NCBI GenBank assembly: GCA_964474085.1
Contig: CAYYRJ010000014.1
Span: 603 to 64,602, forward strand
Direction of reading: 5' to 3'
Length of the DNA stretch: 64,000 nt
From: an uncultured Planctomycetales bacterium
GTDB taxonomy: Bacteria; Omnitrophota; Gorgyraeia; Zapsychrales; JANLHA01
The notes under the pieces were generated by a model. That model had not been told where the DNA came from. It did not search any database and saw only the letters and a program-made list of their open reading frames with translations. Below, in pieces: positions 1 through 60,217 of the stretch. The position numbers and the translations under genes are program-made. Position 1 is the stretch's first letter. Each line of letters begins with the position of its first letter.

Positions 1-10
1 TGTCTTAGGG

Positions 11-15000: not shown

Positions 15001-18000
15001 CGATAATATGATTTTTTCTAAAGTTGATGTTGAGATTCCTAATTGGAAAGCTCGCGTTTTTGCATTAAATTCTGGGAATCTTTTTGATGTCGTTACGGCA
15101 AGTCATTTATTAGAGCATCTTGATTCAGCCGAGTTGGTTGAAACAATTTTAAGTTGGTTAAGTTTGGCGAAGAAAGCGCTCATTGTTTCTGTGCCATTTG
15201 AACAGAAATTAAGCCATATCTCGCAGCATAAAACATTCTTTAACCCAGAACGGTTAGGGGCTTTGGCTAAGACAGTAAGCCAAAAGGCAGAGCATAAGTT
15301 TATTGCGCATCTTCAACATCTTAACTCAGGGATTGTCGTTTTTAGTGCATCGTCCACGATCTTGGAAGGTGTTGAGGATGTCATAAGTTATTATAATTCC
15401 TTAGATTCAAACAAAAAGTCTAAATTGCGTTTTGATCTTGCCGAATTGCTAGTGGCTAATTATTTTGATTCTCCTCAAGAAGTTGAGTCAATATTTCGGC
15501 GAATTTTTCAAGACGAGAGCTTAGATTTTCAAACGGCAATTTTTGCTTTGAGGGAAATTTTGATTCAACCGATGGCCAGCTCATTGTGGGTTTTAGAAAA
15601 CTTAAACAAGAAATACGGTATACGTATTACAGTTTCTGATCTGATCAGAATTTTTACGGCTTTTCAAGGAAATCATGTTGTCCAAGATATTATTCGTTTC
15701 AACAGTTCTGGATCAAAAGTGTTAGCGGTTGCTCGCGGAGTTATGCTTAAGAAGAAATCTACCACATATTATTTTGATGTTCAGACAACGGATACTTGTC
15801 CGTCTCTTTGTACAAAGTGCTGGAGATATTATCAGGATGATGGGGGGGTCGCGCATCTGATGCCTCGAGAACATCCCACCAACTTTGTGAGGCCATCTTT
15901 TACTGATTTCCAGAGGGTCTTTCATCAGGCTATTGACTTAGGAGTTGAGAGTATCGCCAGTACGGGTGGAGGAGAACCATTTATGAATTTGCAGTTGCCT
16001 GAATTATTGGCGGATGCTAAGGCTTATGCAGTTTCAAAGGGTATTAATCTCCGAGTGTTCGTGCCGGTTAGTGGGCTTGGACGCGTTTATAATGATCCTA
16101 AGAAGTTGGAATTAATTATTAACACGGTAGATCTTTTGCGGTTTAGTTTCGACAGTTTTGATAAAGATTTTGTTATGAAAAATCATGGGGTCAGTGAGGC
16201 TGGTTTTAACATGATGCTTAGGAATTTTCGTAAAGTTGTAGAATTAAAACATCACTTGCAATCTAATATCGACATTGAAGTGTTGATTTTGTTATATCGA
16301 GGGAATTATCAACACGCTGAGACAACTATTGAGAAGGCTTATGAATTGGGGGCAACGCGTGTTTTGATTAATTCAATAACTGGGAATGATGCAGTTGCGA
16401 TGGATCAAGAAGAAGCCAAGTTAAGCGCTAGAGTTTTACGGCGTATTTATGAACGTTTGGCTAATGGAGACTTTGGGGTGATGCAAATTGATTTTGATCC
16501 CGTCTTGATGGGAGGGTATGCGAACATTTCTCAAGTCGATCGAAATAACTTAGAACGACCACTCGGGAATATTCGTTACTGTATGAAAAACGTCTTTGGA
16601 TTAACTCCTGTTGTTACTGCAGATGGCACTTTTCATGTTTGCTTTCCTTGTTCTCAGCCGAATATTGCTAACAGACAAGATATTTTTAAGATTGGGAACA
16701 TTATGGAGGATTCAATAGAAGCTCTAGTTGCTCGCATGCGAGATAATTATCGTGATATTGATCCCGAAGAAGATTGTATTAAAGATTGCAGAGATATCCC
16801 ATATTTTAATGGGATTTTTCGTAAAGTAATTGAGGATATTTTATTAGGTATTCCGGTAACGGCACAACCATTTTTAGACCGTAGCGATCCGAAATTGATT
16901 GTTAGCCATACTCTGCATTCGGAAGTTTTTAATCAAGGAAATTTGTCTGAAGTTATGGATGAAATGAATGATGCGAGCCGTCAGGTATTTAATGATAAGG
17001 TTTCAGATTTTAAAGAATCTGTGTTGTTGATTGAGCAGGGAAGAGTAGCATTTGATCCTAATAACCTCGCAGAAGGCGTTGTAGCGCTACTGTTCGACAG
17101 GTATCAGACAAGAAATATTTTTGATATTCATGCAGTTCGATGGGAAGAGAAAACGTATCTTTTTTCTTACGACATTAGTATGCTTTATGAATTAGGGAGC
17201 AATGAATTTATAGATTTTATTGACGTTGATCGGTTGCCTGCTATTGCGCAAGATTTCTTTAAAGATTTACACCGTAAGCAATCAATGGGGGATATCTATA
17301 TTGATGATTATCCGGCACTGTTTTCAGAGAATTTCCCTCGGATACGGCGTGCAAATACACAGCCTGTTAATGTTACATTTTATATGAAAAGCAGTTTATC
17401 CTCCGACAAATCAGCTTCTAGTGGAATAAAATCAGAAAACGTTGCTGCTAACCAAAGGTCGCACAGTTTATTGCCTCAGCCAAATGCCAGCTCAGCTTCA
17501 ACGGTAATGTCTGTGGTTGCCCCAAGTTCTGGCGAAAACCCATACGTATCTTTTTCTGATATCCAGCGACTGCATTTGCCATATGGTGAAAATGTTTCGT
17601 TATATGGTGATTATTCGAAGATTTCCAAAGAAGCTAAAGAGGTGAGAGATTTTGTTATGACGTTTAATCCTGCTTTTCAGGGTGCGTTGCGAGATGATGG
17701 ATTCTACCCAGCGGTTTGCGAGGTAGCGTCGAATATTTTAGGACATTTACTTTTAATAAAATTTGGTAATTTTGTTAAGGTTGAGACTGTTGTTGGAATA
17801 GGGGTAGAAGGAACTCATTTTGGGACACAGATAACAGTTATAAATTCTGGAGAAGTATTTTATATTAACGCGACGGACGGACAGTTTATTTCTGGGTTGA
17901 AAGGATTGCTCTTTAATCATTCAGATATCGATTCCGTCAGAGAATTATATAGGTCATTGTCGCCAAATCTGTCGAGGCAAATATATGCTCAAATGGGGTT

Positions 18001-21000
18001 TGACTTTGTAAGTTTTAGAAGGGTTGGGGAAAGTTTCTCGCCGTCTATGTTTTATGACTTTATATTTATTTTTGATTCTGTGGCATCCAGTTTTCCCGAC
18101 GATAATATTAGTATAAAGGTTATCAGCCAGCTAGAAAACCGTATTAGCAACTGGGTTTCGCCCGATGTAAGCCAAGATGTGAAATCAAGAATGCCGTTAA
18201 ATTATTCGCATCTAGAAAAAATTGTACGTTTGGTGGAGCTTTTGCAGGCGCAGGGCGCTGAAAATAAAATTGTTGCCGCTTCAACGGCCAAAGAGGCAGC
18301 AGCCCCTGAAGATTTAGTAGAATTCTCCGTCGAGCCAAACGCGAGCGCGCCTGTGACCGGCCCGCCGCGTTATGTGTTTTCTTCCACTGTTTTTCCTTCA
18401 AGTTCTTCGCCTCTCAAGCCTCGACAACAACACACAAAAAATTTGGATTCAAACAAGCCTTCTCTGCGGGTTTTAAAAGATATCCACAACGCAAGTGATT
18501 ACTATCGCCAATTGGTTGGAGAATTAGAAAAGCTGCTCGCCCGGATCGATAAACATAATCAAGGTTTACGCGGTCATAGTGAACGCACGGCTTTATACGC
18601 TTTAGTTTTAGCTGACAAGCTTGGGGCTGATCTTTTTGATGTGTATATTTCGGCACTTATTCATGATGTTGGAAAGTGCAGGATTAGCAATCATCTTTTG
18701 GACGGACCAACTTTAACGAAGAATAAATTTATTGTGTTAAAAACACACGTAAGCAAAAGTGGCGGGATATTAAAAGCAAGATATCCTCTCTTAGATAGGG
18801 ATTTCGCATTGGGTCATCGATATCATCATGTTCGTCCCGACGGGAAAGGTTATCCGAAGTTTTTTGGTAAACAGGTGAATGAAGTTGAGCGGCAAGTAGT
18901 CTCAATTGTTTCGGTAGCGGATGCCTTTGATGCGATGACGGATCAAAGGACCTATAATCAGCAGGTTTCGCCCTTGATCGCTTTACGGCGGATTTCTGAG
19001 GCAAGTGGAAAACAATTTGATCCGACGGTAACAGGCGCCTTAAATGCTTTGTATTTTAGCAATAGGTTTGACGTTGTTGAATTAGAGAATTTGCCGCTTT
19101 GGGTGACGTCGGTTCTGCATAAGATGCTTTTAATCCAAGTCCCTGAAGGTGCTTGCTGTTGGCCGGACAATTTGTTAAACGTAAAGTCTAGATCCAGCGC
19201 GCCTGTGACCGGCCCGCCGGCTGAGCAGTTTATCGTCGTCTCTGCTCCATTGTTCCCCTCTTCCAACGCAGTTAGCCATTTTACAGATCAAACAAGAATT
19301 TCTACAGATTTAAGTCCGCTTATTCTTAATGGCGTTAGTCCTAATTTGTTTAGAAATGTTAGCGAAGTCCATTTGATCGCCGCTGGCGGAGGTGGCGATG
19401 TGGATAGCGCGATTCTTCTGGCTTTAGGGTTGCGTCGAATTCTTGGCGAAAATATAAAGATTGTTATTTTTACCACTAACGTGAAACACGCTAAAGAAAA
19501 CCCTATGGGCTGGCCGCTTCCCGTCGGAAATATCATTAATATTAGAACTGGTCAGCCGATTAAGCCTATCCCGGGCAGCGAGCATATTTATCGCATTGTC
19601 CCCGGGCTTATTGTTCAAAACGAAATTTTGGATGATGCCGACCGACCGTATCGCGTCGAAGTCCCGCTTTCAGATAGTCAGATGGTTGCTCGTGGGCTTG
19701 CGCAAGGGATTGAACTTTGGATGGTAGATGTTAGCCAAAGTGCAAAAGATTTAGCCCAAGATTATTTACGCTCGCAAAGCGATGACGTTAAGAGAAAAGA
19801 GCGTGTTCTTATCAGTCTTGATGTTGGCGGAGATAGCCTTGCGCGGTTCCCGTACTCAATAACTTCACAGAATAAGCAAACGCATCCGGAGCGGTTTATT
19901 TGCTCGCCGGTGACCGACATGATTATTTTAAACATGGTCAGTGAATTAGAGCGAGTTTTACACGCAAACGTTTTCTGGGCTGTTTCAGCTTTAGGCGGTG
20001 ACGGAGAATCAACCCCAGAGGTGCTTGAGTATATGCGCGAATATTATGCCGCGCAAGAAATCGTCGGCGTTCTGGATAATATTCGTTTGTTTAATGAATA
20101 TATAACCCGTCAAGATGCCCTCGTTCTATATCAAGCGCTTGCGACGATACCCAGCGAAGTTTCAGGAAACCTTTTGAAACGTCTTTTTGCCATTTCTGGA
20201 CGGCTTGATGAAATTCGTGGATTAGTTGATCGGCAACAAAATGTAGACCTTAAGCGTTGGGTGATGAGCTCGCAATATTTGCAGCAAGGTTTTCATCCTC
20301 AACAAATGTTTGATGCCAATTATATGACGCAGGCCCTTGCTCCAGTATTGGCAGCTTCACTGAGAAATGGGACTCGTCGCGAGTTATTGTCCCAGGCGTA
20401 TCCACTCACGTTTTTCTTTCGTCCGTCGTCGATTGCGTCAAAAGTCCGTAATCCTGATTTTGGCAACGCAAGGCTTAATTGGAAACAAATGGAAAGGGCT
20501 GTGCGGGGATTTGGTTATACGACGGAAATATCTGATTCACAAATGATTTGCAAATTGCAAGAAGCAAAAACCGCTGTGGGTGTTGTTGCCGCTAGTTCGG
20601 TTCTTTCTTCATCAACCTTTTCTTTGCGCGAACTTTCGATAAATATCAAACAGGCGCAGTTGTTGTTAAAAGAACTGGGGCTTGTACACGAACTGGCCGC
20701 TAATGTGATCCAACCGCTTATGCAAGAAGTCGGCGCTTGGCAAGACAGAGAATTGCGAGGCGTATTTTATAGTTTACTTAAAAGTCAAGCTGTCCCTATT
20801 TTATCCGACGGAAAAATCATTTTTGAAAATACGCAGGGCGTTGGCATCGATGAGTACGGCAAGCTTACTGTTGATGCGAAAATTCGCGAAGGCTTAAAGG
20901 TAATCGGATGTGGCTGCGTCTTTGCGGACATGGACGATAATCTTGCCCCGAGGGAAAGTCCTTTCCCTGACGCAATCGTTAATGCGATTTTGGAATTGAT

Positions 21001-24000
21001 CATGCTAGGGATGATGCGCCTGCGAATTACGACGGACAATGAAATTGCTAAAGCGGTTTATCGTTTGGATGTCCTTGCCCCGCAACTGCGCTCGGAAATC
21101 ATCGTTTATGCGGATGGTTCCGGGAATATGTATTATTTTGACGCTAATCGCAGCCAGTGGGTTTTAGATCCCGCATACGCGCAAGGGATCGGTTCGTCAA
21201 TTAGTCCCGAGACGTATCAACTGATTAAGGCTCAGCTTTTTGACGAGTTTATTGAAGATTGGAAAGAATTTTTGATGACTCTTGCTGAGGCTTTAAATGA
21301 ATTTTTGCCACAAGAAAATTGGCCGTCCGACGAAACAGGCCTGCAAATTATTTTGGAAAAACTTGCTGGCGGACTTTTAAAGCCGATGCTCCGTGACTCT
21401 TCGCTGCGAGAACAGGCAGTTTCTGCTCTTTTTTCTAAAGATACCGAAAATTTCGTTGAGAGACTTTTACAGGAAGCAGAAAGCATCGACGAGCATGATG
21501 CCCAAAGACGATCTTCCTTTTTGCAAATGGTCGCTGTAGCAGAAATATTAAGAATTCTCAATTCAAACGATACCGCAGATAAAAAAGAGAAGAGAGATAT
21601 CATAGCTAATTTTATTACGCTCGACAATTTGAAGTTTCCGCTTAAAGACAGGATATTGGCTGTCACGTACCGTCAAGGTGTTCAGATTTCGCTTAAGGCC
21701 ATTCGGCCTAAATTGATTCATGACCTTTATGAAAGAATTCTTATTGATAAAATGGCTGCGCTTAAAGAATATTTTGGCGTTGAGTATCCGGATTTAAAAG
21801 ATTTGCAGTTAAGCAAAGCCAGCCGTACCACAATTAATATCAAACAAGGTCATGTCAATAAAGCAGGCCCGTTTATCGACGCTGTTGAGAATTCGGGGGG
21901 AATGCCCTTTTATATTCTTTTTACCGCTGACGATTTTTCAGGTAAGGGGGTCGATGTTCCCGTTGCGCAACTGTCCAATGATGTATCAGGGTATGAGCAG
22001 ATGATGATTTTAAATACTGATGAGCAGTTTTCGGATGCGGGTCTTTATCCGCGCGTGCGTTTGACAAAGGATATTGCTTTTCTTGAGGGTAAATTTGGTC
22101 CAGAAGCGAATGCCGCGATTTATCAGAATCTGGCAAAAAATATTGGAGAACAGCTGCGTATGCTTTTGGCAAATCCACAGTCACAGCCACAGCCGGCTAT
22201 GGAAATTTTACGCTATGACCTTGGATTTGACTCAAAGGTTGAGCAATTTACCCGGTATTCCCGTCGGCGATCGCAGTTATTAAGAATTTTCAGTGAAGAC
22301 CAAGAGCTTGTTGATCAATATTTACAAAGGTCTAAAATTTCTTTAGGTTTAAACAGGCTGCAGGTGGAAAGCGGAATTTTTGATCCTTCTTTGGCCGAAG
22401 AGAGCCAAAAAGGCGCCGATTCTTATATGCAAAAAGATGCGGCAGTCGGTCTGTGCATGGGCGGCGGAACCGGAATGCTTACGGTTATTCAGGCGATTCT
22501 AAAAATTGTCCCGCCAGAGCTGAAAATTATCGGTGGGGTCACTTCAACTGATGACGGAGGTTCGAGTTTTGCAATTGATAATGATTTAAGAACTGCCGGA
22601 TTTGGCAGGCCGCCTGCTTTGGGGGATTTGATAGGGGCTTTGCTGCAAGGGCTTGCTTCACCGGATAAAATTTTTCGTCTTTTAGACCCGCAAGGGCGGG
22701 TGCAAATGACCAATGAACAATCTCGAATGCCAGAATCTGATATGGAAGGTCATTCTTTTAGGGTAGGACAGCCTGTTTTTTACGACGATCAGTATAACCC
22801 GATTTATCTAAAAGATTTTAAAGAGCTGATTATTCGTTCCCTTAATCGTATTGTCCGGCAATTTTTACATCAAGATAGATTAAGCGATGATTTTGTTTTT
22901 TTTGCGGTGAGTTTTTTGAATCTTGTTGAGCGCTTGGAGCCCTATTTAGAAAAGGGATATATCGGTTTGCCGGGTTTAAGCATCCGTAATCTTTTGCCGA
23001 TAGGCGCTATGGATTATATGGGACTTATAGATCTCGACAAGCCAAAATATAAATCAGCCGTAGGTAAGCCGATTATTTCTAACGAAAAGGATATGCGCCG
23101 TTTTGAAAAAGGTCTTGATCTTATCGCGCAGATGATGGGTATTACCCAAGGCCGCGTGCGGCTTTCGCATCTCTATCCGGGCACGCTATATGCACTTTAT
23201 CAAGATTTTGTAATTCTTATCAGAAATTCTGTATCGCAAGAAAATATTATCCTTCTTGTCCGTCGAGAAAATAAAAATTGGCTGGTTCGTTTCTGGGAAA
23301 AAGATGAAGAATACAAAGTCAATTTTTCAAGCCATCGTGTCGAGATTCCCTTAACAAGCACTTTGACCGCGAATTTTTCAGGCCAGCAAAATAGCTTTTA
23401 TTTTTCAATCAATACCGGTTACGGATCTCTGCAGGTACTCGAAAGACCGCAAATGTCCGAAAGTCTTGTCGCCTACCAAAGTAAAAAGTATCAGATGTCT
23501 ACGGATGGAACAGGGCTTCTGCAGCTTTCAAATAAGAGAAACTCCCGTCATAAAGCTTTGTCAATCAACGGTCATACGGTCTATATTCGTAATCGTTTTG
23601 TCGCGATGCAGACGCATATTACGGAGACAGCAAATTTTTCTAGAATTGTTGGATTTGGTATTGCGACAGCAAAAAGTTTTAATGGCCGCAATGCGTATAA
23701 GCCGGATTCTCAAAAACACTTGGCGGCTAACAGCGGATTCTTGAAAAATATTCTTTCCGAGAACACTCGCTTTATTACCTTTGGTCCCGGTTCGCTGTTT
23801 ACAAGTTTATTGACTCATTTTCTCGTCGGTGGATTGGCTCAAGCTTTGGCTGGCCGCTGTAAGCGTGCGGATATTCCCATTGTTCTGTTTTTGGGGCCCG
23901 TGCTGGATAATGAAAGTTTTGGATATCGGCTATTAGATCTGTTGGAATATATTGAAAAGTTATCAGGATTGCGTTTTGATAAAAATCCTATTTTTACGGA

Positions 24001-27000
24001 TTTAGTTGTAGCTCCGTTGGATACCAGCACCATCGAAAATGCTCGTCAAGTTGACGGACTACAGCCAGTCGATTGGTATGTCGAGCAATTGCTCAATGGC
24101 GATGGCAGTGTCAAAAAAGATGTTATCGCGGATTTGGATTTACGTTATATCCAAATGCTCGTTGAAAACTATCGCGCTCAAGAGAGTTCCGGCCAGCCGA
24201 TCTTGGACATTAATGGCGCAGAGATTTGGTTGGAGGACGAAAATCGTGCGGCAGTTTCTTTAAGAGATTATCTGACATTTAAGATTACGCAATTTTTAAA
24301 GTGTGTTAACCAGGAACCTAAGCCTGAGGTGCGCAAGCCCAGCGATCCTTCCAAAGAAGCCAAAAAGCCCCGCGGTTCATTTACGCCGTCGGCAGAAGAG
24401 TTAGAATTAATTCAAAAACGATATAAAATTCGTGTTTGGACAAATATTTTTACTGCAGGAGTTATGTTGAGTTCTCCTCGCGATCCCAGCCAGCGGGTAG
24501 AGCCAAAGATTGGTTATGCCAAGGATAATCCCGAGCATTTGCGCGAACTTTTAAGGCTTCCCGCGATAGAAACGTCCGTTGCCAGCTCAACTCTTGTTTT
24601 TGGCGATGATAGAGCTTCGAAAACATCGGCGGTTGTCGAGCCGTTGCGGTTAATTATGCGGATGGGAGAGTTTTTTGCACAGTTCACAGGTTCGTTTGCG
24701 GTTCCTGCTCGGTTACAGCATACGGTCAAATCATTATTTGCTTATAAAGATATTGTTGAGCAGCCACGTATTAAGGCCTTGCTTAACCGGGTCAATGCAT
24801 CGTCGTGGAATTATGTTATTACTGATTTTGATGCTTATCGATTGGCACTGATGTTCAATCATGTTCCTCAGGGCGCTTTAGGCGTTGCTTTGCCGGATGG
24901 AACAATTATTTTTTATGAACCTTATTTATCTGCCCAACAGCCTTATCTTGTTGCTCATGAATTGCAGCATAGAATTAATGATTTGGTTAATCGAGAAAAA
25001 CAAACACAAGCCGTTGCTGCTGGAAGGACAGCCATCGAAGTTTTATTTTCTGAAATTGTTCTTGGGAATGTTTCATCGAAGGCTTTGACGCAGCTAATCA
25101 ATCTCAGGGAATTATTTATCAATGAGTATGGCTCCCAATTAGGGTTAGATGAACTGATTGCTTGGCTTGTTGTTGGTGCCTATCCCAATTGGATGTATGA
25201 TCGAGCCAATCCAATTGAGTCGACGGAAGAAAAGAAATATTTTAGTTCTGTCAGCAATGGGCAGGGAGAAACGCTAGGTTTGGTTAGACGTTTTCTTCAA
25301 AAATTGACCGCAAGCGACAGAGATGTTTTTTCTCGTTTTTATCAACAAGGTTTAGGCGTCCCGTACAGTTTTGATCCTGACGGTATTCATTTAGTCGCCA
25401 GTTCGGGTGTTGCTCATAATCTGGTTGCGAATCGTCAAGAGGTCATTGAAATGGCGATGTTTAAATTTGTGCGGCTTGCCTTGGAATCTGTCGAAAATTC
25501 AGGAAGTTTTGTCGTCGTTTTACCCGGCGGAAAAACGGCGCGGGATTTTTATTTAGCTTTTGCGGCGCAAATTGATCAAGTGATGAGCGTAGAATTAAAT
25601 TCGTTAAGTCCAAAGCAGAGAATTGATCGCCAACATTTAGAAAGCATTTTGCCGCAGACCATTTTTATTCCTTTGAATACTTCTATTCGCGACGGACAAA
25701 CAGATACGCAAACAGTTTGGCTGCCTTTATTTGAAACGTTAATGACTTATGGCTTGATCAAGCCAGAACAGATTTTGCAGATTAATTATTCAGGTCCAGC
25801 GTCACCAGAACAAAAAGCTTTGGATTTGCAAAATGCCATTGCGCAAAGACTTAAAATACTCAAAAAAGAGAAAGTGGACTTGGCCCTTGTCGGTATCGAT
25901 GAGAATGGCCGCTGGGCAGGGATTGAGCCGCAAGATGATTATGTCCTCAATTCGCAGGAAATGTATGTTTATAGCCAAGAGACAACACATTACACTTTTA
26001 CGTCATATTTTATTTTAAATAGGGTCAATCAAGTAATCGCTCTTCTTTCCGGCGGGAATAAACGTTGGGTTGACATGCATTTGACGACACATAATTCGCC
26101 TGATCGGCGCGATGTCCCTGCGGTCGATTTGCGAAATCATCCGCATGTGCTTGTGATTATTGACCAAGAAGCGCGCACTTTTCCGACAGAAATAATTTCT
26201 TATTCCGACTCGGTCAGCGGGCAAAAGCTTGAGACTGAAATATATTTAAATGTCCAGCGAGAAGTTGATGGCATAAATCTCCATGAGCAGCCAGTTATTA
26301 TTGGGGTTCATGGCCATTTGATGCGGGCATGGAAACCGATTTTGGCGATGCCTCAGTGGAGTAAAGAGAACTATATTTTTGCTGACTTAGCCCGTCGTCC
26401 TAAAGTTGACGATATACAAGCATGGCGCAACACGGGTTTGAGTGATGATGAAATTTATATGTGGCAGACAGCTTTGCATATCCAAGCGGCTATTGCGCAT
26501 TTTATCCAGCAAGGCCATCCAGTTGGCCTTGTGATGCATTCGATTGCCAATGAGTTTCTTAATTTCATCTTAGCTAATCTTAAGACCAAACTCACCCTCT
26601 CCGATGGAAAACAATATCAGCCTTTGGAGTTTATGGAGGAGAATATCAGCCGTATCCCAATCGTTCTTGTCAATCCGTTTTTTGCTCGACACAATTTTCG
26701 CGCGGCACTAGGTGTTTTGCAAATATTTTTAAAATCAAATTTTCCGTCGTGGATTTATTGGCCATGGAAAGTATTCTTAGAAAACATTCCTTCTAACTTA
26801 GAACAAAGTTTTGATAGATCAACCAGAAGATTCGTGCATTTTTTAATTAATAGAACAGCCGCTGTGGCATCAATGGCAACACGCATTCCGTATTTTGGCA
26901 AGTCGTTTCGGAACGTCATTGTTAATAAAATTGATCGTATGGAGGAGGTCCCGGATGAATTTAGGGCTGATATTATCGAAGAGTTTGATAATGTCGTTGC

Positions 27001-30000
27001 ATTTGAGGAATTGTGCGCCGTTATGGCTACAGCAGCGACGGAGAAAAATGGATCGCAAATTGCAGCGATTATTAAAGAGTACAAAATTCGTATCCTTCTG
27101 ATTTTTAATGACAAAGATTTTATCGCTTTAATTGGTAAGCAGATTCAACAGGATTATTCTAATGCTGGTGTCTTACTTAAAAATGTAACACAAGAGGTGG
27201 ATGTTAGCTCTGTGATGGCGCACAAGTATTTTGTCACCCATCCAGAGGAATTTGCGCAAACGGTCATTGAGTTTACGAAAAGAAGTTTTTCAGCATCCTC
27301 GGCGGTCGATTTGCAGATTCCCGCCGCCTCAAGCGGTATTGAAAATGAAAATTTATTGCTTTTGTTAAAAATTAAAATTGCGAAAGAAACTTTGGAAGAG
27401 TTTTTTAGGAATGCCACAGAGTCAGAGATTGATCAGCTTAAGAAACTGATGATGATTCTGCCAGCTGTTTGGCAAGCTGTTGAGAATGCCCTGTATCCTT
27501 GGGCGGATCACTATGATTTAGCGCAAGTTCAAAAACCGGCTGGTATTTTTAATTTACTTGCTAATCAAGATAAAGATTTAGTTGATCTTTTGCCGGATTT
27601 GCCGTCAGATGAGGTTATAGTTAGCCGCGATGCGAAGCGATTAAACGTGCGGATTTTGTTATCAGAAAATTATTTGAGCCGAAAAAGCCTTCGCAGGGAC
27701 ATGTTTTTGATACGAGCATTTTTTATGTTAGAAACAGGGATTATTCTTTCACCTGTTTTGGTGTCTGTCATTCTTGGGGCATTATCAACTTGGCGTTATG
27801 GTGTGGCTGTATATTTAACAAGCCTTTGGGTTGGAAGAAAATATATTTTATCTACGATCAAAGAATTATATTCTGAGTGGGCGTTGCGAAATTATACAGA
27901 AGTATTTGATTTAGAAATTGAATTAGACTACCAGAGTAAGAATGCATATCTGGGGCATGGACGTATGCACCGCGACCCGATTGTTTTAACTTTTCAGCAA
28001 AATGGGATTTCAGCTCAAGTCGCCAGCGCGGCAAAAGATTGGGTGCAAAAGCATTGGTTTTTAGAACAGCTTATCCCTTGGTTAGCCTCGCGAGAAAAAA
28101 ACAGAAAATATTCTTTTGATTATTTTGTTGTCAAACATGTTTTAGATCGAAGCCGTGCGATGTTTGAAGCGCTTGGATTTCATGTCGTCAAATACGCACA
28201 GGACGATACTCCGATTGCGGTTTATGATCTTAAGGCATTTCGTCAAATACAAGCCCAACAAATAGACTCCAGCGCCTCCTCGGCATTGGCTATTTCGTTA
28301 CATCAAGTTTTTCGAGTTGCCGGTCTTCGTCGGGATATTGATGTTTCGAATTTCAAATTTGCACCTTACGTTGGTAAATTGCGCTATGTTGTCGGAAAAG
28401 GAGGATATGTCTTTTTTGTGAGGGAGGCTGATTTTCAAAATCATCAACTTTACCGGTTAACTTTTCGTTTGACAGAGATTAATCCGTATTTGGGCCCTTT
28501 TGGTCAAGAGCTCGTTGATCAACAAGAAAATTTTGTCAATGCGACCATTGACCTAGCCCGACAGATTGCCTCTTTGGGTGTCGGAGATGTTTTGGATATT
28601 CAAATCAATGAACTGTATCGGTCTTTGGGAGGACTAGGATCTGTCTTTTTATCTTTGCTCATTGAAGAGTTGTATATGCGCCAGATTAAAACTTTAAAAG
28701 TTTATGGACCGACGGTGCCTGCGTTTTATCGAAATCTTGGATTAGCTTGGATTGCAGGTGGTAATAAGGCGATGATTCTAAAATTATCCGATAAACAACA
28801 ACAACTTTATCCATGGCAAATTCAAGCTGTCGCGGCTAAAAGAGGATGGATTGTTCTCGAGGCGCTTGACTGCGGAGATTTTAAAGTGCTCCCGCATTTG
28901 TTAATTGAAAACACGGCGCTGAAAGAAAATTTCTCATTTTTCTCTGCAGAAGAGATTTCTTCCTCAACAGTAACAGCACAATATCTTGCGCAGGTGATTG
29001 GGGAATCTCTAGGGCAGAGCACAATTGAAGATTTTATTAACACCACGATTGTTTTGACAGAAGAGGAACATCGAACGGTAATTTTGACAGATCCACAGGA
29101 AAAAATGATTGTCACAATAATCCGTGTGCTTGCCAAGACCCATGGTATTGCTGTTGCAGAGATTTATGAGCAGCTGCGCTTATGGGTCAGTTGTTTCTAT
29201 GAGGAAGTTAAAAGAACAGATGAGTTTTACCGTGCAGACACGCAAGTTGTTAAAGCGGTTTTGACAGCTTTAGGCCCAACGGTTGCTCCGAGAAGAATTA
29301 ATCTTTTAGAATTATTTTGGTCAGGAAATTATAATCCGTTTGTTCAACAAGTCGAGTTGTGTCGTGTGCCCGGAGTAGATTTGTCCGTTTATAGAATACA
29401 ACAACCTGGGGATTGGCAAAAATATCAGTCAGCTTGCCGGCCTGCGATAAATGTTGTTTTCTTAAGTGCATTAGTGAGAAAAGGGCATGCTTTGCTTTAC
29501 AGCGCATATAAAATGCTTACGCAAAATACGCGTGGGGCGATTGTTGTTGCTTTTGCCAATGCGTATAACGATAGCGATGAGGATGAGCTTAAGAATTTTG
29601 TGCAGCAAAAAAATATTAAGATTCACAAAGTTGAATTTTCCGCGCATACATTCTTTATCCTTTCCGTCGATAAAAGAAACACAAAACAAGTCTCATCGTC
29701 TAGTGCTCTGATAGAAGCAGCTTCAAGGTTACTGTCGCCGGAGAGTTTAACAAAGACTCAAAGAGTCGTTGCGCTTTTGCAAAAGTTTGGCGCCCAGCCG
29801 TCAACGATTGCCGCGGCGTGGTTAGCGTATATCCCCGATGCTAAGTTAGCCGAATTGTCATCGGCAAAGAAACGATCCCGTCCAAAAGATTTAGCCCCGT
29901 ACGTTGCCCGAGCAGAACATTTCAAAACAATAAGTAATATCATTTACATCCCATCCGTCGATGAAAACGGTCGGCTTAAAGATCCTCGCGGCCTTGAACG

Positions 30001-33000
30001 ATGGTTGACGTATTTTGTCAAGGTCATATCCGATGGCCAGGCTTTTCTTTTTGCTGTCGCGGATGTTATGGCTGATTTAGAAGCGTCACAAGATGCTGAT
30101 GTCGCTCGGCGGGCCTATTTTGAACAAAAAGCGATGCATATTTTTGTAACGCTTGCCAACTTTTTTGGTTTGCATGAAATGGCCCGGGATTTGCGTGTGT
30201 TGGCACTGAGAATTGTTAATCTGGATCTCTATCAAAGAATCAGCGAGTTTATTGATAAAATAGACGGTGATTTGGATGCAGACCAAAAAGATTCATATCT
30301 TGTACAAACCAAAGACAACCTTAAGGAATTTTTGGAAAGAAACGGGATTTCAGAGGAAGTTTATTATTCTTGGAGGAAAAAAGACCCAGCATCTTTTGGC
30401 AATGTCATGGTGCGAAAAGGAAAAAATCCCGATGATGTCGATGATTTTTACGGTATTATCATTGTCGCGCCAACCAAAGAAGAGCGCGATCACATAGCAA
30501 GCCTTCTCTATGCGATTTCTGATTTTAATGTTTCTCCGCATCTGAAATATTCAAATTTTGAAATGCATGCGCTGCCTAAAAAACCATTTGAAGCCCTGCA
30601 GTTTAAACACAAAGATTCTAGTCGTCGTCCGTTTGACATTTATGTTTTTGATAAAGTCAATTATGATTTATACCGGACTGCGGTTTCGGCAGCGCATTGG
30701 GAATATTCTGCTCACAAGAATGCGGCTTTACGGCAACAAAAACTGGATCTGTTCCCTCACTTTAAGCCATCAAGGAATATTGACCAAGATTTTACTCAAT
30801 TGAGTAATCATTTTGTCGGTAAAAACGTTGCTATTCTTGTTCGGCCTATTAAAAACAATCTTAAGCCAAGCGATGATGAACAATACGAATTAATTCCGCG
30901 GGATTTTCCGATCAAGGCCATCCCTGCGGATGTTGCGGCGCAATGGAGATTTAATCGGTTAGGTGAAAATTATTTTGGTGCATATCCGGTGGTGCTTGGT
31001 TTGTACTTTGAAGACGTGTCATTGATTCTTGAGGCGCGAAAGATTCACCAAAAACTCAAGGAAACACAACCTTTACCCGTCGGAACAATACTGATGATTG
31101 CGGATCACTCCAATGGGTCTTCTGTCCATTTGGATAAGATATTTACGAAGGCGACAACGCCCCGAGCACGGCTTATGTCCAAATTGATAGGCTTAAATTC
31201 TCAAGAACGAAAAAATCTAGTCGCGCAAGGCCGAGAGAAACTTGTCGAGATCGCCCAATTGACTAACCGTAGTCGCGAAATACAGGCGCTGCAGCGTTTG
31301 AGCAATACCTTAGGGTTTAAGACAAACGATGGGATGGAAGAATTGTATCAGAGTGTTGCTTTAGGGTTAGTTGATGCTCAAGATATTCATGAAGCTTGGC
31401 AGGCATCTGGCCGTAAGCTTTTGGCCAGAGAAATGGGTATGGCTTGGATTAAGGATTTTGATGAACAGAGAGTACAGATTCGTCTCGAGTCTATTTTGGG
31501 GACATTTTCCAAATTATCTTTGAAGTATATCAGCAGTGTCCAAGGGTTCATTGAAGCCGTCGGCCGCGGGATGATTGAGCCGTCAGCGATTAAAGAAAAG
31601 TTGAGCTCCGGCGGGCTTTCGGCTATTTGGCAAATTACGAATGTGGAAAATAAAAGTGAATCACAAAACATTTTACACGTTACCGTTAAATATGATCGGC
31701 CGGGAATTTATTTGTCGTTAACGCGTATTTTGGCTCATTATGGAATTAATATAAGACGAATGAAGGATATTGGCGATATTGTTCATATTGAGGTTGATGC
31801 AATCAATGAGGCAAGGATTCTAAATGCTGTTGTTGAAGATATTCAAAATTTCATTCCGGATGTTCAAACCGACAGTGGTATTTTTTCGGTGGTGCTAGAT
31901 GTGTTTGCCGCTAATCGCATGAAGGTTTCGGCGAGAATGGCAAATTCTCCAGGTGAAATTTATAGACTTTTGAATGCCCTTTCAAAATTTGATCGAAAAA
32001 TTGGATATTCAAGTTTGACAGTTATTCCATCGTTTAATTATGCGGATGTTTTGATGACGCTTAATTTGCCGGCTGGTTTTTGTACAGATACGAAAGCGTA
32101 TCGCCAAGAAATTTTAAAGATCATGAATTCTGTCAGCGGAAATTCTGCTCGAGAAATTAACGGCCAAAGCTCATCATCATCAGCAATTCGAGATGACGGG
32201 CAAAGTGAAAAGAATTTATTGTCGATTGCCAATCGCGCGAGTCGTGGCGCGGACGTTAAGGTTCTGCGAAATATTGAGTTAGTGCGGCAAGAAGAATTTA
32301 GAAGAAAATATTTAGAGCGTCGGGCGCTGGTCGTTTGGCCGCGAGGGTATGAAAGAAAACAACGTGATCCTCGTCGTTATTTTGCGACGAATCATTCGGG
32401 GAGAGCGCAAATCATAGGCGTGAGTATAAATGAGATTTTGACAAACACGGATCGTTTTTCTATTCCAACAAATTCCAATAATTTATCACAGCGACAATCC
32501 GGTCGACGAATAAGGGTTATGCGCCTAACTGCAATTTTTGCCGGCATTGATGTGCGAAAAAATATGATGACAGTAAGTGCAGAAAAGAGTTTGGGGGAAA
32601 GGAATGCCTTAATTTCTCGTGGAGTGTTAACGACAATCTTTCAAGGACAGCTCATCGAAGAAGTCGTGCGCTTTCGTCCCGATGCGGTTAGTGTTGGGGC
32701 ATATGTTATCTCTGGAGTTCAAATTACGCCACAGATTAACTATCAAGGTCAATGGAAGGATTTGCAGAGAAGCTTAAGGATTTCGTATACAAAAATGCAA
32801 TATTTTAAATATTTGGTTATACGGGTCTGGAAATTAAGACCATTTTATTCTTTGGGGGCGAGGTTGCGCGAGTGGTTAAGTGCGTATAACGAAAATCATC
32901 ATCGGGCGATTTCGAGTGCGGTTGGCAATGATCACTCGTCGCCTGAATTTGATTATTCGCAATATTCTCTGGCAGTTGTTATTACAATTCTTTTGGTTAA

Positions 33001-37582: not shown

Positions 37583-37621
37583 CGCAACCATAATTTGAAA
37601 TTTCCTATCAACACTCGACAA

Positions 37622-40600: not shown

Positions 40601-40780
40601 AAGCAGTTGAGTGCGCAAGACGGTTCCTCCAGCGGGAAACCGACAGATTATGCTTTGACAGAAGAACGGTTAAAAGATGCGCAACAACGCCTAGAGATGG
40701 TTGAGAAAATTTTGCGTGAAAAAGATGAGCAGATCCAAGAATTAGAGAAGCAATTAAACGGGGTTTTATCAGCGTTCTGA
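37622..40780 (+). CDS. Secreted K/E/Q-rich coiled-coil protein with N-terminal signal peptide and a TPR-like segment
   Basis: MTMNKKLYLLFACISFFLFSSASAHA signal. NYELAIKEFNKALLADPDNEDALMYL is TPR-like. The rest is charged low-complexity with coiled-coil heptads. Track ORF starts at TTG 37595, only 13 nt after the -10, so ATG 37622 or 37628 is more plausible. Confidence 0.6.
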   Translation: MTMNKKLYLLFACISFFLFSSASAHANANLVTNYYVESGKKLFDEKNYELAIKEFNKALLADPDNEDALMYLRMLGLGSTDKDEIKTSREQGESSFEEKPNKKTKKNAPKPAASVKNNKDADLKIKQIKTQVEQEEKAAIESLRAQAAQEEQKISSSAASQKSADSDNKIEDVVKDQNQKVTEQKKLGHRPDVEQVACPGKNAVKENFSDAACKKLCCACAQKAQEAQEQNIIQEGSVDQQQSTLTNSQQEVKPAKTDIAGFELENKGSVCKKCSVCNKKAAKSVKNQKSKGKKVSDKVDAAAKTADVKKTPPVKAKNSGQSSSVSISQKQDADDLTQELQEAVDGPALLAVAKKDPSPVAAKEKEAATIAAIKADGVKQQSQIRKEFAEQEKRNIQQIHAKYKSKRIGKNEKAVLRDLDGDGVKERISSVENKAIEKMLATSAKKEKAALKDLDKKVLFKEKAEIKRLRTQSQKSKKEVSLKKVRAGDVVVDQPDIAAGDDEVSLEDQQNISQRKDIQIPVVDENTEPLVEASIEQALASPVDKKSAKKKPVLAKQPVKKKKQTDKEKALTETSLAKMQDVATQDDVLQEEPLAADASENLSSQKAEPLSVQEKGVGDSEKSLDNPSKTSRNKARDINSEQMDEPLQASRDLAQEEKALHEKFEQKKAALIEEVKKESQDVSSEKTLRPKEDQNSSSDNQQVESAEKVGQETLSAVLDSGKNEALKAVESENLVLKKKLAQVVEMAGQDQKTIKDLEKNITQKSEKAQILENDLVEAKQTIESKKEALKEQTAKMKDLQTRISAMEVDLHSKQYDFKDKQLEYEKKLQAIEEEFGNYKSEKAKNEEELQGQLKILKEALAKKIDELNEAQEKLIFVENKLEKSETARKATIKEYEDLKKTMSDLEGRLTGLPTEIKTDQLPVVSVDPKNLPKPKTSDEFMYQQWIARHDKLITKLKEKLLWAREQMDYLGRYDIKLSDQKMAALKEQLAAVKKQLSAQDGSSSGKPTDYALTEERLKDAQQRLEMVEKILREKDEQIQELEKQLNGVLSAF

Positions 40781-44466: not shown

Positions 44467-44526
44467 TTAACAAAGTCATGCGATGTCTAGTCAAGACGAC
44501 AGTCGACTGGTATAATCGACGACATT

Positions 44527-56162: not shown

Positions 56163-56261
56163 TTTTTGAGGTGACTTTAAATCAAAAGTTGACTTTCTTT
56201 GTACCGTTGGGTAGAATTGGTCTCTTTGCATTTGGAATAAGATGTTTGTAGCAAAAGTTGT

Positions 56262-60211: not shown

Positions 60212-60217
60212 AGCCTC

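What the first reader, a model, noticed from the sequence alone, without database searches (positions are those of the whole stretch)
18344..32000. Second-messenger and stringent-response domains embedded in the same mega-protein (HD-GYP, RelA/SpoT-like synthetase, ACT)
An HD-GYP domain (HSERTA...HDVGK...DGKGYP, 18480-19050) implies c-di-GMP hydrolysis. The C-terminal ~1,000 aa carries Rel/SpoT-synthetase-like segments (LANFFGLHEMARDLRVLALRIVNLDLY, ...AAHWEYSAHK) followed by an ACT-like fold. Having (p)ppGpp-type and c-di-GMP-type signalling modules in cis with glycogen-metabolism enzymes suggests a self-regulating storage-carbon machine. Glycogen turnover is classically controlled by ppGpp and c-di-GMP in trans.
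Basis: inference. Interest (0 to 1): 0.7.

Follow-up and report, generated by a model that had tools for sequence, protein, structure and literature searches.

The report
HD-GYP and degenerate Rel/SpoT modules in giant
One bacterial gene of at least 11,001 codons (Omnitrophota-like) strings glycogen enzymes together with an intact-looking HD-GYP cyclic-dinucleotide phosphodiesterase and a conserved Rel/SpoT-like module that has lost the residues needed to make or break (p)ppGpp, so the c-di-GMP half of the claim holds and the ppGpp half does not.

Summary
Window 11..33016 (+) is one stop-free ORF of 11,001 codons, still open at the left edge. It carries glycogen modules (GDE_C, GH77, GT5/GT1, alpha-amylase), an HD-GYP module (nt 18545-19045) and a C-terminal Rel/SpoT-like (RSH) module (nt ~29696-32137).

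The HD-GYP module passes Pfam's cut-off and keeps every invariant family residue. It is probably an active phosphodiesterase.

The C-terminal module is homologous to long RSH enzymes. Its AF2 model has pLDDT 86, and the top 28 PDB fold hits are all Rel/SpoT/RelA. The domain order is pseudo-HD, SYNTH-like, TGS-like, helical, then two ACT domains.

RelA_SpoT, HD_4 and ACT HMMs all fall below their cut-offs. The hydrolase HD dyad is AY. The synthetase strand EVQIRT is DIYVFD. K251, R269 and H312 are lost, and there is no RxKD/ExDD motif or zinc finger. R241, K243 and D264 stay invariant, and dN/dS is about 0.2.

Best reading: an RSH-derived sensor or pseudoenzyme, not a (p)ppGpp synthetase. A second giant locus (L052) also links an amylase module, HD-GYP and an RSH-like module, but there as two genes. 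Multi-enzyme Omnitrophota giants are already described, so this is a new variant of a known kind.

The parts
11..33016 (+). Giant ORF of at least 11,001 aa, open at the left window edge. It is a chain of about 25 modules joined by Ser-rich linkers.
   Evidence: Pfam architecture
4307..11005 (+). Glycogen-metabolism block: GDE_C (aa ~1433-1828), GH77 fragment (aa ~2118-2171), glycogen/starch synthase GT5+GT1 (aa ~2570-3115) and an alpha-amylase-like module (aa ~3152-3665).
   Evidence: GDE_C 1.5e-52; Glyco_transf_5 8e-49; GT1 2e-20; GH77 1.6e-8; alpha-amylase 5e-8
18344..18367 (+). Linker 'SAPVTGPP' (aa 6112-6119) upstream of the HD-GYP module. A second copy at nt 19196-19219 lies downstream, and a third is at aa 4710.
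18545..19045 (+). HD-GYP phosphodiesterase module. Ligands H6189, H6218-D6219, H6246, H6272-H6273 and D6304; GYP at 6280-6282.
27719..27853 (+). The only strongly hydrophobic internal stretch (aa ~9237-9281), a probable membrane hairpin upstream of the RSH-like module.
   Evidence: Kyte-Doolittle window; conserved in L001
29693..29713 (+). Junction motif 'SSSSALI' (aa 9895-9901) marking the start of the RSH-like module.
29696..30265 (+). Pseudo-hydrolase (HD_4-like) domain of the RSH-like module. The HD dyad is A9939-Y9940.
30308..30730 (+). SYNTH-like (RelA_SpoT-like nucleotidyltransferase) domain. R10122, K10124, D10145, G10148 and H10229-W10230 are kept. D10209 stands for E323, Y10211 for Q325, F10213 for R327 and D10214 for T328.
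30821..31099 (+). TGS-like beta-rich domain (aa 10271-10363).
   Evidence: sequence resemblance 'PADVAAQ...GAY' to 'PIDFAY...GAKVNG' (my reading)
31130..31603 (+). Helical domain (aa 10374-10531). It is the most conserved part between close relatives (dN/dS ~0.16). No zinc-finger Cys motif.
31619..31852 (+). ACT-like domain 1 (aa 10537-10614; 'YDRPGIYLSL').
31916..32137 (+). ACT-like domain 2 (aa 10636-10709; 'ANSPGEIYRLL').
32168..32191 (+). Junction motif 'QSSSSSAI' (aa 10720-10727). Relatives carry an extra 2H-phosphoesterase-like module at this point; the window does not.
32963..33004 (+). C-terminal hydrophobic tail ('LAVVITILLVNV'), a possible tail anchor, conserved in L002 and P0001.

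Best explanation
The window encodes a cytoplasm-facing, membrane-tethered multi-enzyme giant of an Omnitrophota-like bacterium. No signal-peptide-like N-terminus is seen, but the topology was not computed and the true N-terminus may lie outside the window.

Its HD-GYP module is a standard binuclear-type HD-GYP phosphodiesterase. It most likely hydrolyses c-di-GMP or a related cyclic dinucleotide (inferred from the residues; not assayed).

Its C-terminal ~830 aa descend from a long Rel/SpoT enzyme, with the order pseudo-HD, SYNTH-like, TGS-like, helical, ACT, ACT. This module has lost the (p)ppGpp hydrolase metal site, most acceptor-side and catalytic synthetase residues, and the ribosome-binding zinc-finger domain. 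It keeps the ATP-phosphate and Mg-binding residues (R241, K243, D264, G267). It is maintained by purifying selection.

It therefore most likely works as a ligand-binding regulatory module, a pseudoenzyme. A nucleotide would bind in the remnant SYNTH pocket and a small metabolite at the ACT pair. It would not work as a (p)ppGpp synthetase or hydrolase.

Shown: homology, fold, residue states, selection, and conserved linkage with HD-GYP and an amylase module. Inferred: PDE activity, ligand binding, and any control exerted on the glycogen modules.
For: HD-GYP: Pfam above cut-off. PDB relatives reach 2e-14 with 7 of the 8 PmGH ligands aligned; only the third-metal Glu is Gly. All invariant family columns are present. 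The orthologue in L052 is 63% identical with the ligands kept.

RSH descent: phmmer against the PDB. The exhaustive HMMER search links the module to canonical ~700-aa RSHs through intermediates. 13 of 14 family members hit PF04607, best 2e-17. The AF2 NTD model has pLDDT 85.9 and pTM 0.84. The Foldseek top 28 hits are all long-RSH NTDs over ~360 columns, best 5e-11. The CTD model has pLDDT 79.9 and matches full-length SpoT and RelA as well as ACT pairs.

Loss of catalysis (residue table; alignment): H53K, H77A, D78Y, K251V, R269I, H312Q, E323D, Q325Y, R327F. In relatives E323 is replaced independently by D, S or Q. No Cys-rich zinc-finger motif is present.

Still functional: R241, K243, D264, G267 and H-W are invariant across 14 sequences at ~20-25% identity. 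dN/dS is 0.16-0.27 in every subdomain against L001, and 0.29-0.33 against L002 over the C-terminal half it covers.

Linkage: L052 carries the end of an amylase module, an HD-GYP gene and an RSH-like module, with MutL/MutS downstream as in the window.
Against: No biochemistry exists. E323D is a conservative change. T328D is shared by all 8 giant-embedded modules examined (WIN, P0001-5, P0007) except P0008, and also by P0017, so a relocated catalytic acid and retained pyrophosphoryl transfer cannot be excluded. The invariance of R241, K243 and D264 fits catalysis as well as mere binding.

I could not inspect model coordinates. The HD-GYP module has HHV in place of the near-invariant HHE, its substrate is unknown, and no GGDEF or other cyclase was seen in the 64-kb window. 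L001 has an in-frame TAA inside the SYNTH-like strand. That could mean decay in that lineage, or it could be a MAG consensus error.

At greater distance the RSH-like module is the fastest-diverging shared module: 26% identity against 34-68% for the others.
Confidence: 0.6

Rival explanations
1. One reading: the C-terminal module is an active (p)ppGpp synthetase (and/or hydrolase). Together with the HD-GYP module it makes the giant a self-regulating glycogen machine that produces and destroys its own alarmones.
For: RSH fold and domain order. R241, K243 and D264 are retained. Glycogen modules lie in cis. The linkage is conserved in L052.
Against: PF04607 and PF13328 are below cut-off. The HD dyad is AY. 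E323D, Q325Y, R327F, K251V, R269I and H312Q are substituted, and there is no RxKD/ExDD motif. Relatives show E323 as S or Q, which is incompatible with a conserved catalytic Glu. By established knowledge, D264 and E323/E324 substitutions abolish synthetase activity in RelSeq and B. subtilis Rel.
Confidence: 0.08
2. The SYNTH-like domain is still an enzyme with new chemistry: a pyrophosphokinase or nucleotidyltransferase acting on a different acceptor, for example a sugar phosphate, a protein or an RNA end, as toxSAS/CapRel enzymes do with tRNA. It would use D264 plus D323 and/or D328 as metal ligands.
For: R241, K243, S247, D264 and G267 are invariant or nearly so. T328D is shared by 7 of the 8 giant-embedded modules examined, the exception being P0008. 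The changes concentrate on the acceptor side (R295, K297, K304, H312). Purifying selection acts on the domain. CapRel and small alarmone synthetases appear among weaker fold hits.
Against: Residue 323 varies (D, S, Q, E) within the clade, which is unusual for a catalytic position. The adenine-stacking R269 is lost. There is no precedent or assay.
Confidence: 0.2
3. The giant is a polyprotein, or a facultative fusion. Modules are released, or in relatives encoded separately, at the Ser-rich junctions, so HD-GYP, RSH-like and glycogen modules act as separate proteins. 'In cis' would then only ensure co-expression. This is not exclusive of the best explanation.
For: The junction motif occurs 28 times against 4.8+/-2.2 in shuffles and sits at module borders. 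Whole modules are gained or lost exactly there between orthologues. In L052 the amylase module ends with 'SSALLQR*' and the HD-GYP gene starts 38 nt later in another frame. Module order is shuffled between giants. West-Roberts et al. 2023 suggest proteolytic processing for other Omnitrophota giants.
Against: No protease family was detected in this giant. Only an unclassified HExxH motif is present. Ser-rich segments are also ordinary flexible linkers. There are no proteomic data.
Confidence: 0.2
4. The RSH-like module is a decaying relic without function, or the long ORF is an assembly artefact.
For: In-frame TAA in L001. Weak HMM scores. The module is the fastest-diverging shared one at long range.
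Against: dN/dS is ~0.2 in all subdomains. The AF2 fold is confident. Residues stay invariant across 20-25% identity. The same C-terminal architecture and MutL/MutS synteny appear in independent assemblies: L001, L002, P0001 and L052. A 33-kb stop-free frame cannot arise by chance.
Confidence: 0.04

Closest known systems
Long RSH enzymes (Rel, RelA, SpoT; e.g. B. subtilis Rel 8acu/6yxa, A. baumannii SpoT 7qpr, E. coli RelA 5iqr)
   Same: Same two-domain N-terminal fold (HD then SYNTH) and the same overall order HD-SYNTH-TGS-helical-ACT. R241, K243, D264, G267 and the AHW motif are conserved.
   Different: The module sits inside a protein of at least 11,001 aa. The HD dyad and H53 are lost. E323D, Q325Y, R327F, K251V, R269I and H312Q are substituted, and there is no RxKD/ExDD motif. 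There is no zinc-finger (RIS/ZFD) domain, and there are two ACT domains instead of one. Family HMMs score below cut-off.
One-sided degenerate RSHs: RelA[hS] (pseudo-hydrolase) and Moraxellaceae SpoT[Hs] (Atkinson et al. 2011, PMC3153485)
   Same: A catalytic domain retained structurally after losing its active-site residues, presumably for regulation.
   Different: Here both catalytic domains are degenerate (an '[hs]' state). The lineage is PVC, where that survey reported no long RSH.
HD-GYP phosphodiesterases (RpfG family; PmGH 4mcw, PA4781 4r8z, V-cGAP3 5z7c)
   Same: Full H, HD, H, HH, D ligand set, HDxGK and GYP. Pfam HD_5 is above cut-off. Identity to ordinary HD-GYP proteins reaches 40%.
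   Different: No REC, HAMP or other sensor domain is attached. The module is bracketed by 'SAPVTGPP' linkers inside a giant. It lacks the Glu of the trinuclear PmGH site (Gly here) and has HHV for HHE.
Omnitrophota giant proteins, 'multi-enzyme metabolic cluster' class (bioRxiv 10.64898/2026.06.07.730766; West-Roberts et al. 2023, 10.1101/2023.11.21.568195)
   Same: More than 10,000 aa. Many different Pfams tile the chain (starch synthase, GT1, radical SAM, HAD, methyltransferase, HD domains). The nearest relatives are Omnitrophota MAGs.
   Different: Neither paper mentions RelA/SpoT, ppGpp, HD-GYP or c-di-GMP. The RSH-like clade and the junction motif are not described there.
GlnD (PII uridylyltransferase: NTase-HD-ACT-ACT). 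Functional analogy only, from my own knowledge.
   Same: A nucleotidyltransferase-fold domain and an HD domain coupled to a tandem ACT pair that senses a metabolite.
   Different: Different domain order and no detectable homology beyond the superfamily level. Not tested here.

Membership tests
HD-GYP phosphodiesterase (Pfam PF13487 HD_5 / PF01966 HD) | HMM score above the curated cut-off | tested here: met
   HD 47.5 bits (cut-off 22); HD_5 46.2 bits (cut-off 27.2)
HD-GYP phosphodiesterase (Pfam PF13487 HD_5 / PF01966 HD) | Metal ligands H, HD, H, HH, D | tested here: met
   H6189, H6218-D6219, H6246, H6272-H6273 and D6304 align with PmGH H189, H221-D222, H250, H276-H277 and D305. They are invariant columns in A4. 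The third-metal Glu (PmGH E185) is Gly.
HD-GYP phosphodiesterase (Pfam PF13487 HD_5 / PF01966 HD) | GYP motif (HHExxDGxGYP) | tested here: met
   YHHVRPDGKGYP, with D, G, G, Y and P all present. The Glu after HH is Val.
HD-GYP phosphodiesterase (Pfam PF13487 HD_5 / PF01966 HD) | Hydrolysis of c-di-GMP or another cyclic dinucleotide | not testable with these tools
   Needs an enzyme assay.
RSH superfamily, (p)ppGpp synthetase domain (PF04607 RelA_SpoT) | HMM score above the curated cut-off | tested here: not met
   17.5 bits, E 5e-3, against a cut-off of 27. No hit at E<=0.01 on the 841-aa piece. TIGR00691 scores 32 bits against 499.
RSH superfamily, (p)ppGpp synthetase domain (PF04607 RelA_SpoT) | RSH N-terminal fold (HD plus SYNTH) | tested here: met
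   AF2 pLDDT 85.9. The Foldseek top 28 PDB hits are all long RSH NTDs, best 5e-11, over ~360 aligned columns.
RSH superfamily, (p)ppGpp synthetase domain (PF04607 RelA_SpoT) | ATP/Mg site: R241, K243, D264 | tested here: met
   R10122, K10124 and D10145 are invariant in the 14-sequence family alignment.
RSH superfamily, (p)ppGpp synthetase domain (PF04607 RelA_SpoT) | Catalytic Glu and the EVQIRT strand (E323, Q325, R327), plus K251, R269 and H312 | tested here: not met
   D10209, Y10211, F10213; V10132, I10150, Q10197.
RSH superfamily, (p)ppGpp synthetase domain (PF04607 RelA_SpoT) | RxKD (Rel/SpoT) or ExDD (RelA) substrate-preference motif | tested here: not met
   The aligned residues are KYSN (phmmer) or YSNF (MAFFT), in a low-confidence loop.
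RSH hydrolase domain (PF13328 HD_4) | HMM above cut-off, and the Mn ligands H53, H77-D78 and D144 | tested here: not met
   21 bits against 27.2. H53K, H77A, D78Y; only D144 is kept.
Long RSH C-terminal region (TGS, helical, ZFD/RIS, ACT/RRM) | TGS beta-grasp after SYNTH | tested here: inconclusive
   No Pfam TGS hit. The model has a beta-rich domain at aa 10271-10363. The CTD aligns with full-length SpoT and RelA at E 5e-5 to 2e-4, but with low TM-scores.
Long RSH C-terminal region (TGS, helical, ZFD/RIS, ACT/RRM) | Zinc-finger / ribosome-intersubunit domain with conserved Cys/His | tested here: not met
   No CCxPxPGD...H...C motif in aa 10374-10536, whereas the canonical hits carry it (sequences; my inspection).
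ACT domain (PF01842) | HMM above cut-off | tested here: not met
   16.7 bits against 27.
ACT domain (PF01842) | beta-alpha-beta-beta-alpha-beta fold with a Gly-containing beta1-alpha1 loop | tested here: met
   Two such units are predicted (aa 10537-10614 with 'DRPG'; aa 10636-10709 with 'NSPG'). Foldseek matches the aspartate kinase ACT pair 3l76 at 5e-5 and the IlvA regulatory domain 9d2s at 6e-4.
Omnitrophota multi-enzyme giant proteins | At least 10,000 aa, many distinct Pfams tiling the chain, Omnitrophota origin | tested here: met
   11,001 aa. At least 14 distinct module types by Pfam, most above cut-off. The nearest loci and relatives are Candidatus Omnitrophota MAGs. The class is described in 10.64898/2026.06.07.730766.

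The most novel reading that the evidence does not exclude
The giant-embedded RSH-like modules (WIN, P0001-P0008, L052) may be a previously unrecognised clade of the RelA/SpoT superfamily in a PVC-group phylum that was thought to lack long RSHs. In this clade both alarmone active sites would have been remodelled into something new. One option is a nucleotide- and metabolite-sensing switch. The other is a pyrophosphokinase with a relocated catalytic acid (D328) and a new acceptor. Either way it would be physically coupled, together with an HD-GYP phosphodiesterase, to a membrane-tethered glycogen and sugar-phosphate enzyme assembly.
Probability: 0.25. Interest if true: 0.75.

Novelty: new variant of a known kind. 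Interest (0 to 1): 0.5.

Why it matters
RSH enzymes are the universal makers and breakers of (p)ppGpp. A conserved, selected RSH derivative with both catalytic sites rebuilt would be a natural experiment on what the RSH scaffold can do besides alarmone chemistry. This one has also lost its ribosome-binding domain and is welded into a carbohydrate-enzyme giant.

It would also extend long-RSH-type proteins to the PVC group, where a superfamily survey found none. The recurrence of HD-GYP next to glycogen-type modules in two divergent giants gives a concrete, testable link between cyclic-dinucleotide turnover and storage-carbon enzymes in an uncultured, possibly predatory phylum.

For annotation, it is a warning. 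A motif-level resemblance ('AAHWEY') would wrongly assign a stringent-response capability to these genomes.

Tried and rejected
1. The word-indexed homologue search with the 841-aa RSH-like piece found nothing at E<=1e-3. Only the exhaustive HMMER search found relatives.

2. The metagenome scan for HD-GYP orthologues returned 49 loci, all at most 35% identical. The 20 longest checked were ordinary ORFs of 233-564 aa, with one of 1,303 aa, so it did not help test conservation inside giants. The orthologue was found instead through a cluster look-up (P0177/L052).

3. Pfam on whole P0004 and P0002 at E<=1e-5 was almost empty, so long giants need to be cut into pieces.

4. Pfam at E<=1 on seven unannotated modules of the finding range gave nothing credible. 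This includes the HExxH-containing module at aa ~8190-8465, so a processing protease could not be identified.

6. I considered GlnD-like (NTase-HD-ACT-ACT) and toxSAS/CapRel identities. I rejected them as the primary assignment because all top sequence and fold hits are long RSHs in the HD-to-SYNTH order.

7. I considered that the ORF is an assembly chimera. I rejected this because independent assemblies share the C-terminal architecture and the MutL/MutS synteny.

8. No GGDEF, EAL or PilZ domain and no canonical Rel was found in the giant or in the neighbouring ORFs that were scanned (20 of about 30 of at least 120 aa). The rest of the genome is not available.

Full report
**What is there**

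The finding lies inside a single open reading frame, window 11..33016 on the + strand. It has 11,001 codons and no internal stop. The three codons before the first ATG hold no stop either, so the gene may start outside the window and 11,001 aa is a minimum.

Cutting the product at its linkers and scanning Pfam gives a chain of unrelated enzyme modules:
- HAD
- GDE_C amylo-alpha-1,6-glucosidase (1.5e-52)
- a GH77 fragment
- glycogen/starch synthase GT5+GT1 (8e-49, 2e-20)
- alpha-amylase
- a methyltransferase
- radical SAM/SPASM
- HD/HD_5
- DUF1152
- CofD-like
- 6-phosphogluconolactonase/NagB-like
- at the C-terminus, weak HD_4 and ACT signals

The neighbours are ordinary Gram-negative chromosome genes: MutL, MutS, a TonB-dependent receptor, ComM, ferrochelatase, AccA, RlmN and a secretin. 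The nearest related contigs come from Candidatus Omnitrophota MAGs. One contig is labelled Planctomycetales. So this is a giant gene of an Omnitrophota-like PVC-group bacterium.

**HD-GYP module (aa ~6179-6345, nt 18545-19045)**

HD (47.5 bits) and HD_5 (46.2 bits) exceed Pfam's cut-offs. phmmer against the PDB finds the HD-GYP phosphodiesterases PmGH (2e-14), V-cGAP3 (2e-13) and PA4781 (1e-8).

In the alignment with PmGH, seven of its eight metal ligands are matched: H6189, H6218-D6219, H6246, H6272-H6273 and D6304. Only the Glu that holds PmGH's third metal is Gly. That is the pattern of binuclear HD-GYPs such as PA4781 (from my own knowledge of that literature).

There are 1,307 homologues at E<=1e-10. 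All 120 listed are ordinary proteins of 183-505 aa, and most of those that carry a source name are called HD-GYP. In an alignment with twelve of them, every invariant column is present in the window, including D-G-x-G-Y-P. The only departure at a near-invariant position is HHE to HHV. This half of the finding stands: the module looks like a competent phosphodiesterase, though its substrate cannot be read from sequence.

**Rel/SpoT-like module: homology (aa ~9895-10720, nt ~29696-32137)**

- No RelA_SpoT hit at E<=0.01 on the long piece.
- On the trimmed domain, RelA_SpoT 17.5 bits (cut-off 27) and HD_4 21 bits (cut-off 27.2).
- TIGR00691 at 32 bits against a cut-off of 499.
- No relative in the word-indexed protein search.

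Homology is nevertheless real. phmmer against the PDB gives 9s6k 'GTP pyrophosphokinase' at 2e-9, and B. subtilis and S. aureus Rel, E. coli RelA and M. tuberculosis Rel at 1e-3 to 8e-3. The exhaustive HMMER search of 1.84 billion representatives gives 49 hits. The best ones are inside long proteins (P0001 to P0008, up to 5,767 aa) and the weaker ones are canonical ~700-aa RSHs. Thirteen of fourteen members of the divergent family hit PF04607, the best at 2e-17.

An AlphaFold2 model of aa 9895-10264 built on that alignment is confident (pLDDT 85.9, pTM 0.84). Its 28 best Foldseek matches in the PDB are all N-terminal regions of long RSHs: Rel of B. subtilis, S. aureus, T. thermophilus, M. tuberculosis and S. 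equisimilis, plus full-length SpoT and ribosome-bound RelA. They align over about 360 columns, with a best E-value of 5e-11.

The model of aa 10249-10724 (pLDDT 79.9) shows four parts:
- a beta-rich TGS-like domain
- a helical domain
- a first beta-alpha-beta-beta-alpha unit
- a second beta-alpha-beta-beta-alpha unit

It matches full-length SpoT (4.6e-5), RelA and Rel on the ribosome (2e-4 and 4e-4), and ACT pairs of aspartate kinase (5e-5) and threonine dehydratase (6e-4). The ACT-like claim therefore holds at fold level, as a tandem pair. The second unit ends just beyond the finding's right border.

**Rel/SpoT-like module: catalytic residues**

I aligned the module with 16 divergent relatives and 10 canonical RSHs and read off the sites, using B. 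subtilis/RelSeq numbering fixed from the 8acu alignment.

| Site | Canonical residue | Window residue |
|---|---|---|
| Hydrolase | H53 | K |
| Hydrolase | H77-D78 | A9939-Y9940 |
| Hydrolase | D82 | A |
| Hydrolase | N148 | D |
| Hydrolase | D144 | D (kept) |
| Synthetase | R241 | R10122 (kept) |
| Synthetase | K243 | K10124 (kept) |
| Synthetase | D264 | D10145 (kept) |
| Synthetase | G267 | G10148 (kept) |
| Synthetase | K251 | V |
| Synthetase | R269 | I |
| Synthetase | Y308 | F |
| Synthetase | H312 | Q |
| Synthetase | E323 | D10209 |
| Synthetase | Q325 | Y |
| Synthetase | R327 | F |
| Synthetase | T328 | D |

The RxKD/ExDD position reads KYSN or YSNF, depending on the aligner. All ten canonical sequences keep E323. 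Nine keep H312 and all ten keep Q325; eight keep R327.

Across the divergent clade D78 and R327 are always lost. E323 is D (WIN, P0001, P0002), S (P0004, P0008), Q (P0007) or E (P0003, P0005 and the medium-sized Omnitrophota proteins). No Cys-rich zinc-finger motif lies between the helical domain and the first ACT unit, whereas the canonical hits have it (sequences).

**Is it a dead relic?**

No. R241, K243, D264, G267 and the H-W of AAHW are invariant across 14 sequences at about 20-25% identity.

Against the orthologue in L001 (77% identical), dN/dS is 0.20 for the pseudo-HD, 0.21 for SYNTH-like, 0.26 for TGS-like, 0.16 for the helical domain and 0.27 for the ACT pair. Values against L002, which covers only the C-terminal half, are somewhat higher at 0.29-0.33.

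A rough NJ tree places the giant-embedded modules in a clade of their own. That clade sits next to 600-1,500-aa Omnitrophota proteins annotated 'HD domain-containing' and away from canonical Rel/SpoT.

Two caveats apply. L001 has an in-frame TAA inside the SYNTH-like strand ('FDIYVFDQ*NYDLY'), which may be a consensus error. At longer range the RSH-like module is the most diverged of the shared modules, at 26% identity against 34-68%.

**Linkage with glycogen modules**

A cluster look-up produced P0177, a 7,861-aa protein on a 29,850-bp JGI contig (L052). It begins with an orthologue of the HD-GYP module (63% identical, all ligands kept). It also contains DUF1152, NAGPA-like, Peptidase_A8, 6PGL-like, RSH-like and 2H-phosphoesterase modules, and it is followed by MutL/MutS as in the window.

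The partial gene just upstream ends with the C-terminus of the alpha-amylase-like module (52% identical to aa 3602-3669 of the window). That gene stops right after 'SSALLQR', 38 nt before the HD-GYP gene and in another frame.

Two conclusions follow. First, the association of an amylase-type module, HD-GYP and an RSH-like module is conserved in a divergent genome, which supports a functional link. Second, the covalent fusion is facultative.

Module order is shuffled between the two giants. Orthologues gain or lose whole modules exactly at short Ser-rich motifs, which are about six-fold enriched in the giant: 28 observed against 4.8+/-2.2 in shuffles.

**How it most likely works**

Shown:
- an intact HD-GYP site
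- an RSH-derived module whose alarmone chemistry residues are gone but whose ATP-phosphate and Mg residues, fold and ACT pair are conserved under selection
- no ribosome-binding zinc finger
- one hydrophobic hairpin upstream (aa ~9237-9281) and a hydrophobic C-terminal tail

Inferred: the HD-GYP module degrades a cyclic dinucleotide locally. The RSH-like module acts as a ligand-binding regulatory pseudoenzyme, with a nucleotide in the remnant SYNTH pocket and a metabolite at the ACT pair, by analogy with ACT-regulated enzymes and with RelA's structural pseudo-HD. Whether either module controls the glycogen enzymes is untested.

The main rival is a retained but altered transferase activity. T328D is shared by seven of the eight giant-embedded modules examined (P0008 keeps Thr) and could supply a relocated acid. 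I rate this at about 0.2. I rate genuine (p)ppGpp synthesis below 0.1.

**Comparison with what is known, and novelty**

Omnitrophota giants and their 'multi-enzyme metabolic cluster' class are described in two preprints. That class includes starch synthase, GT1, radical SAM, HAD, methyltransferase and 'HD-domain regulators'. Neither text mentions RelA/SpoT, ppGpp, HD-GYP or c-di-GMP.

The RSH survey of Atkinson et al. 2011 reports long RSHs as absent from the PVC superphylum. It describes one-sided degenerate forms, RelA[hS] and SpoT[Hs]. The present module would be a doubly degenerate '[hs]' form embedded in a giant.

The HD-GYP module is an ordinary family member in an unusual setting. Overall this is a new variant of known kinds.

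Noticed in passing
window 11-33016 (e.g. aa 1242, 2549, 3669, 5113, 6861, 8191, 8463, 9095, 9422, 9895, 10720): A short Ser-rich junction motif ([ASG]SS+...[AVLIT], such as 'ASSAV' or 'SSSSAL') occurs 28 times against 4.8+/-2.2 in residue shuffles and sits at module borders. 'SAPVTGPP' occurs 3 times (aa 4710, 6112, 6396). Giants of another lineage (P0004, P0007) use 'GAR[AL]A' at equivalent places. These could be processing sites, flexible linkers or recombination joints.
   Followed up: partly
window ~32168 (aa 10720); L001, L002, P0001, P0002/P0177: Relatives carry an extra ~250-aa 2H-phosphoesterase-like module ('SFHMTLVD...GHVSLAY'; PF08975 in P0002) right after the ACT pair. The window lacks it. 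L001 has a DUF1152-like module and another module inserted at aa ~9427. Whole modules are swapped at the junction motifs, and module order differs between the window and P0177.
   Followed up: partly
L052 1-330 (JGI Ga0558719_10776): In this relative the alpha-amylase-like module ends a separate upstream gene ('...SSALLQR*'). The HD-GYP module starts the next gene 38 nt later in another frame. A linker in the window therefore corresponds to a gene boundary there.
   Followed up: yes
L001 4722-4724: In-frame TAA inside the SYNTH-like strand of the orthologous module ('FDIYVFDQ*NYDLY'). Conserved coding sequence continues in the same frame after it. This could be a MAG consensus error, a recent nonsense mutation or read-through.
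   Followed up: no
window 1-13: No in-frame stop precedes the ATG at nt 11 (nt 2-10 read V-L-G), so the giant ORF may continue upstream of the window.
   Followed up: partly
window ~24950-24985 (aa ~8313-8324): An HExxH motif ('YLVAHELQHRIND') lies in an unannotated module that is conserved in P0177 ('YLVAHELLHRIND'). P0003, P0005 and P0006 have 'GHEVFHID' just upstream of their RSH-like module. It could be a metalloprotease, but no Pfam hit was found at E<=1.
   Followed up: partly
window ~7720-7765 (aa ~2577-2590): The glycogen-synthase module reads 'SEAAPFSQVGGVADV' where E. coli GlgA has 'SEMFPLLKTGGLADV' (from my memory of that sequence). The Lys of the KTGGL ADP-glucose motif is Gln. P0004 has 'RQEGGLGQV'. 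Other modules of these giants may also be catalytically remodelled.
   Followed up: no
P0011, P0015, P0024 (Omnitrophota, 680-771 aa): Stand-alone RSH-like proteins with a hydrophobic N-terminus, then 'ALRP', then a 'SSSAG'-type motif. They have HD replaced by HK, HR or HT, and EVQIRT replaced by EFQ(F/L)(M/I/V)(T/S). They may be the phylum's only long-RSH-type proteins and intermediates towards the giant-embedded clade.
   Followed up: partly
window 37595-40780 (+) and 44001-46000, 56001-62000: A 1,061-aa ORF with no Pfam hit coincides with a strong positive AT skew (+0.29), while other stretches have AT skew of -0.19 to -0.29. GC skew is positive across the whole window regardless of gene strand.
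   Followed up: no
L052 gene 263-23848 (P0177): A Peptidase_A8 (lipoprotein signal peptidase II) module is embedded in the related giant. There is no counterpart in the window's giant.
   Followed up: no
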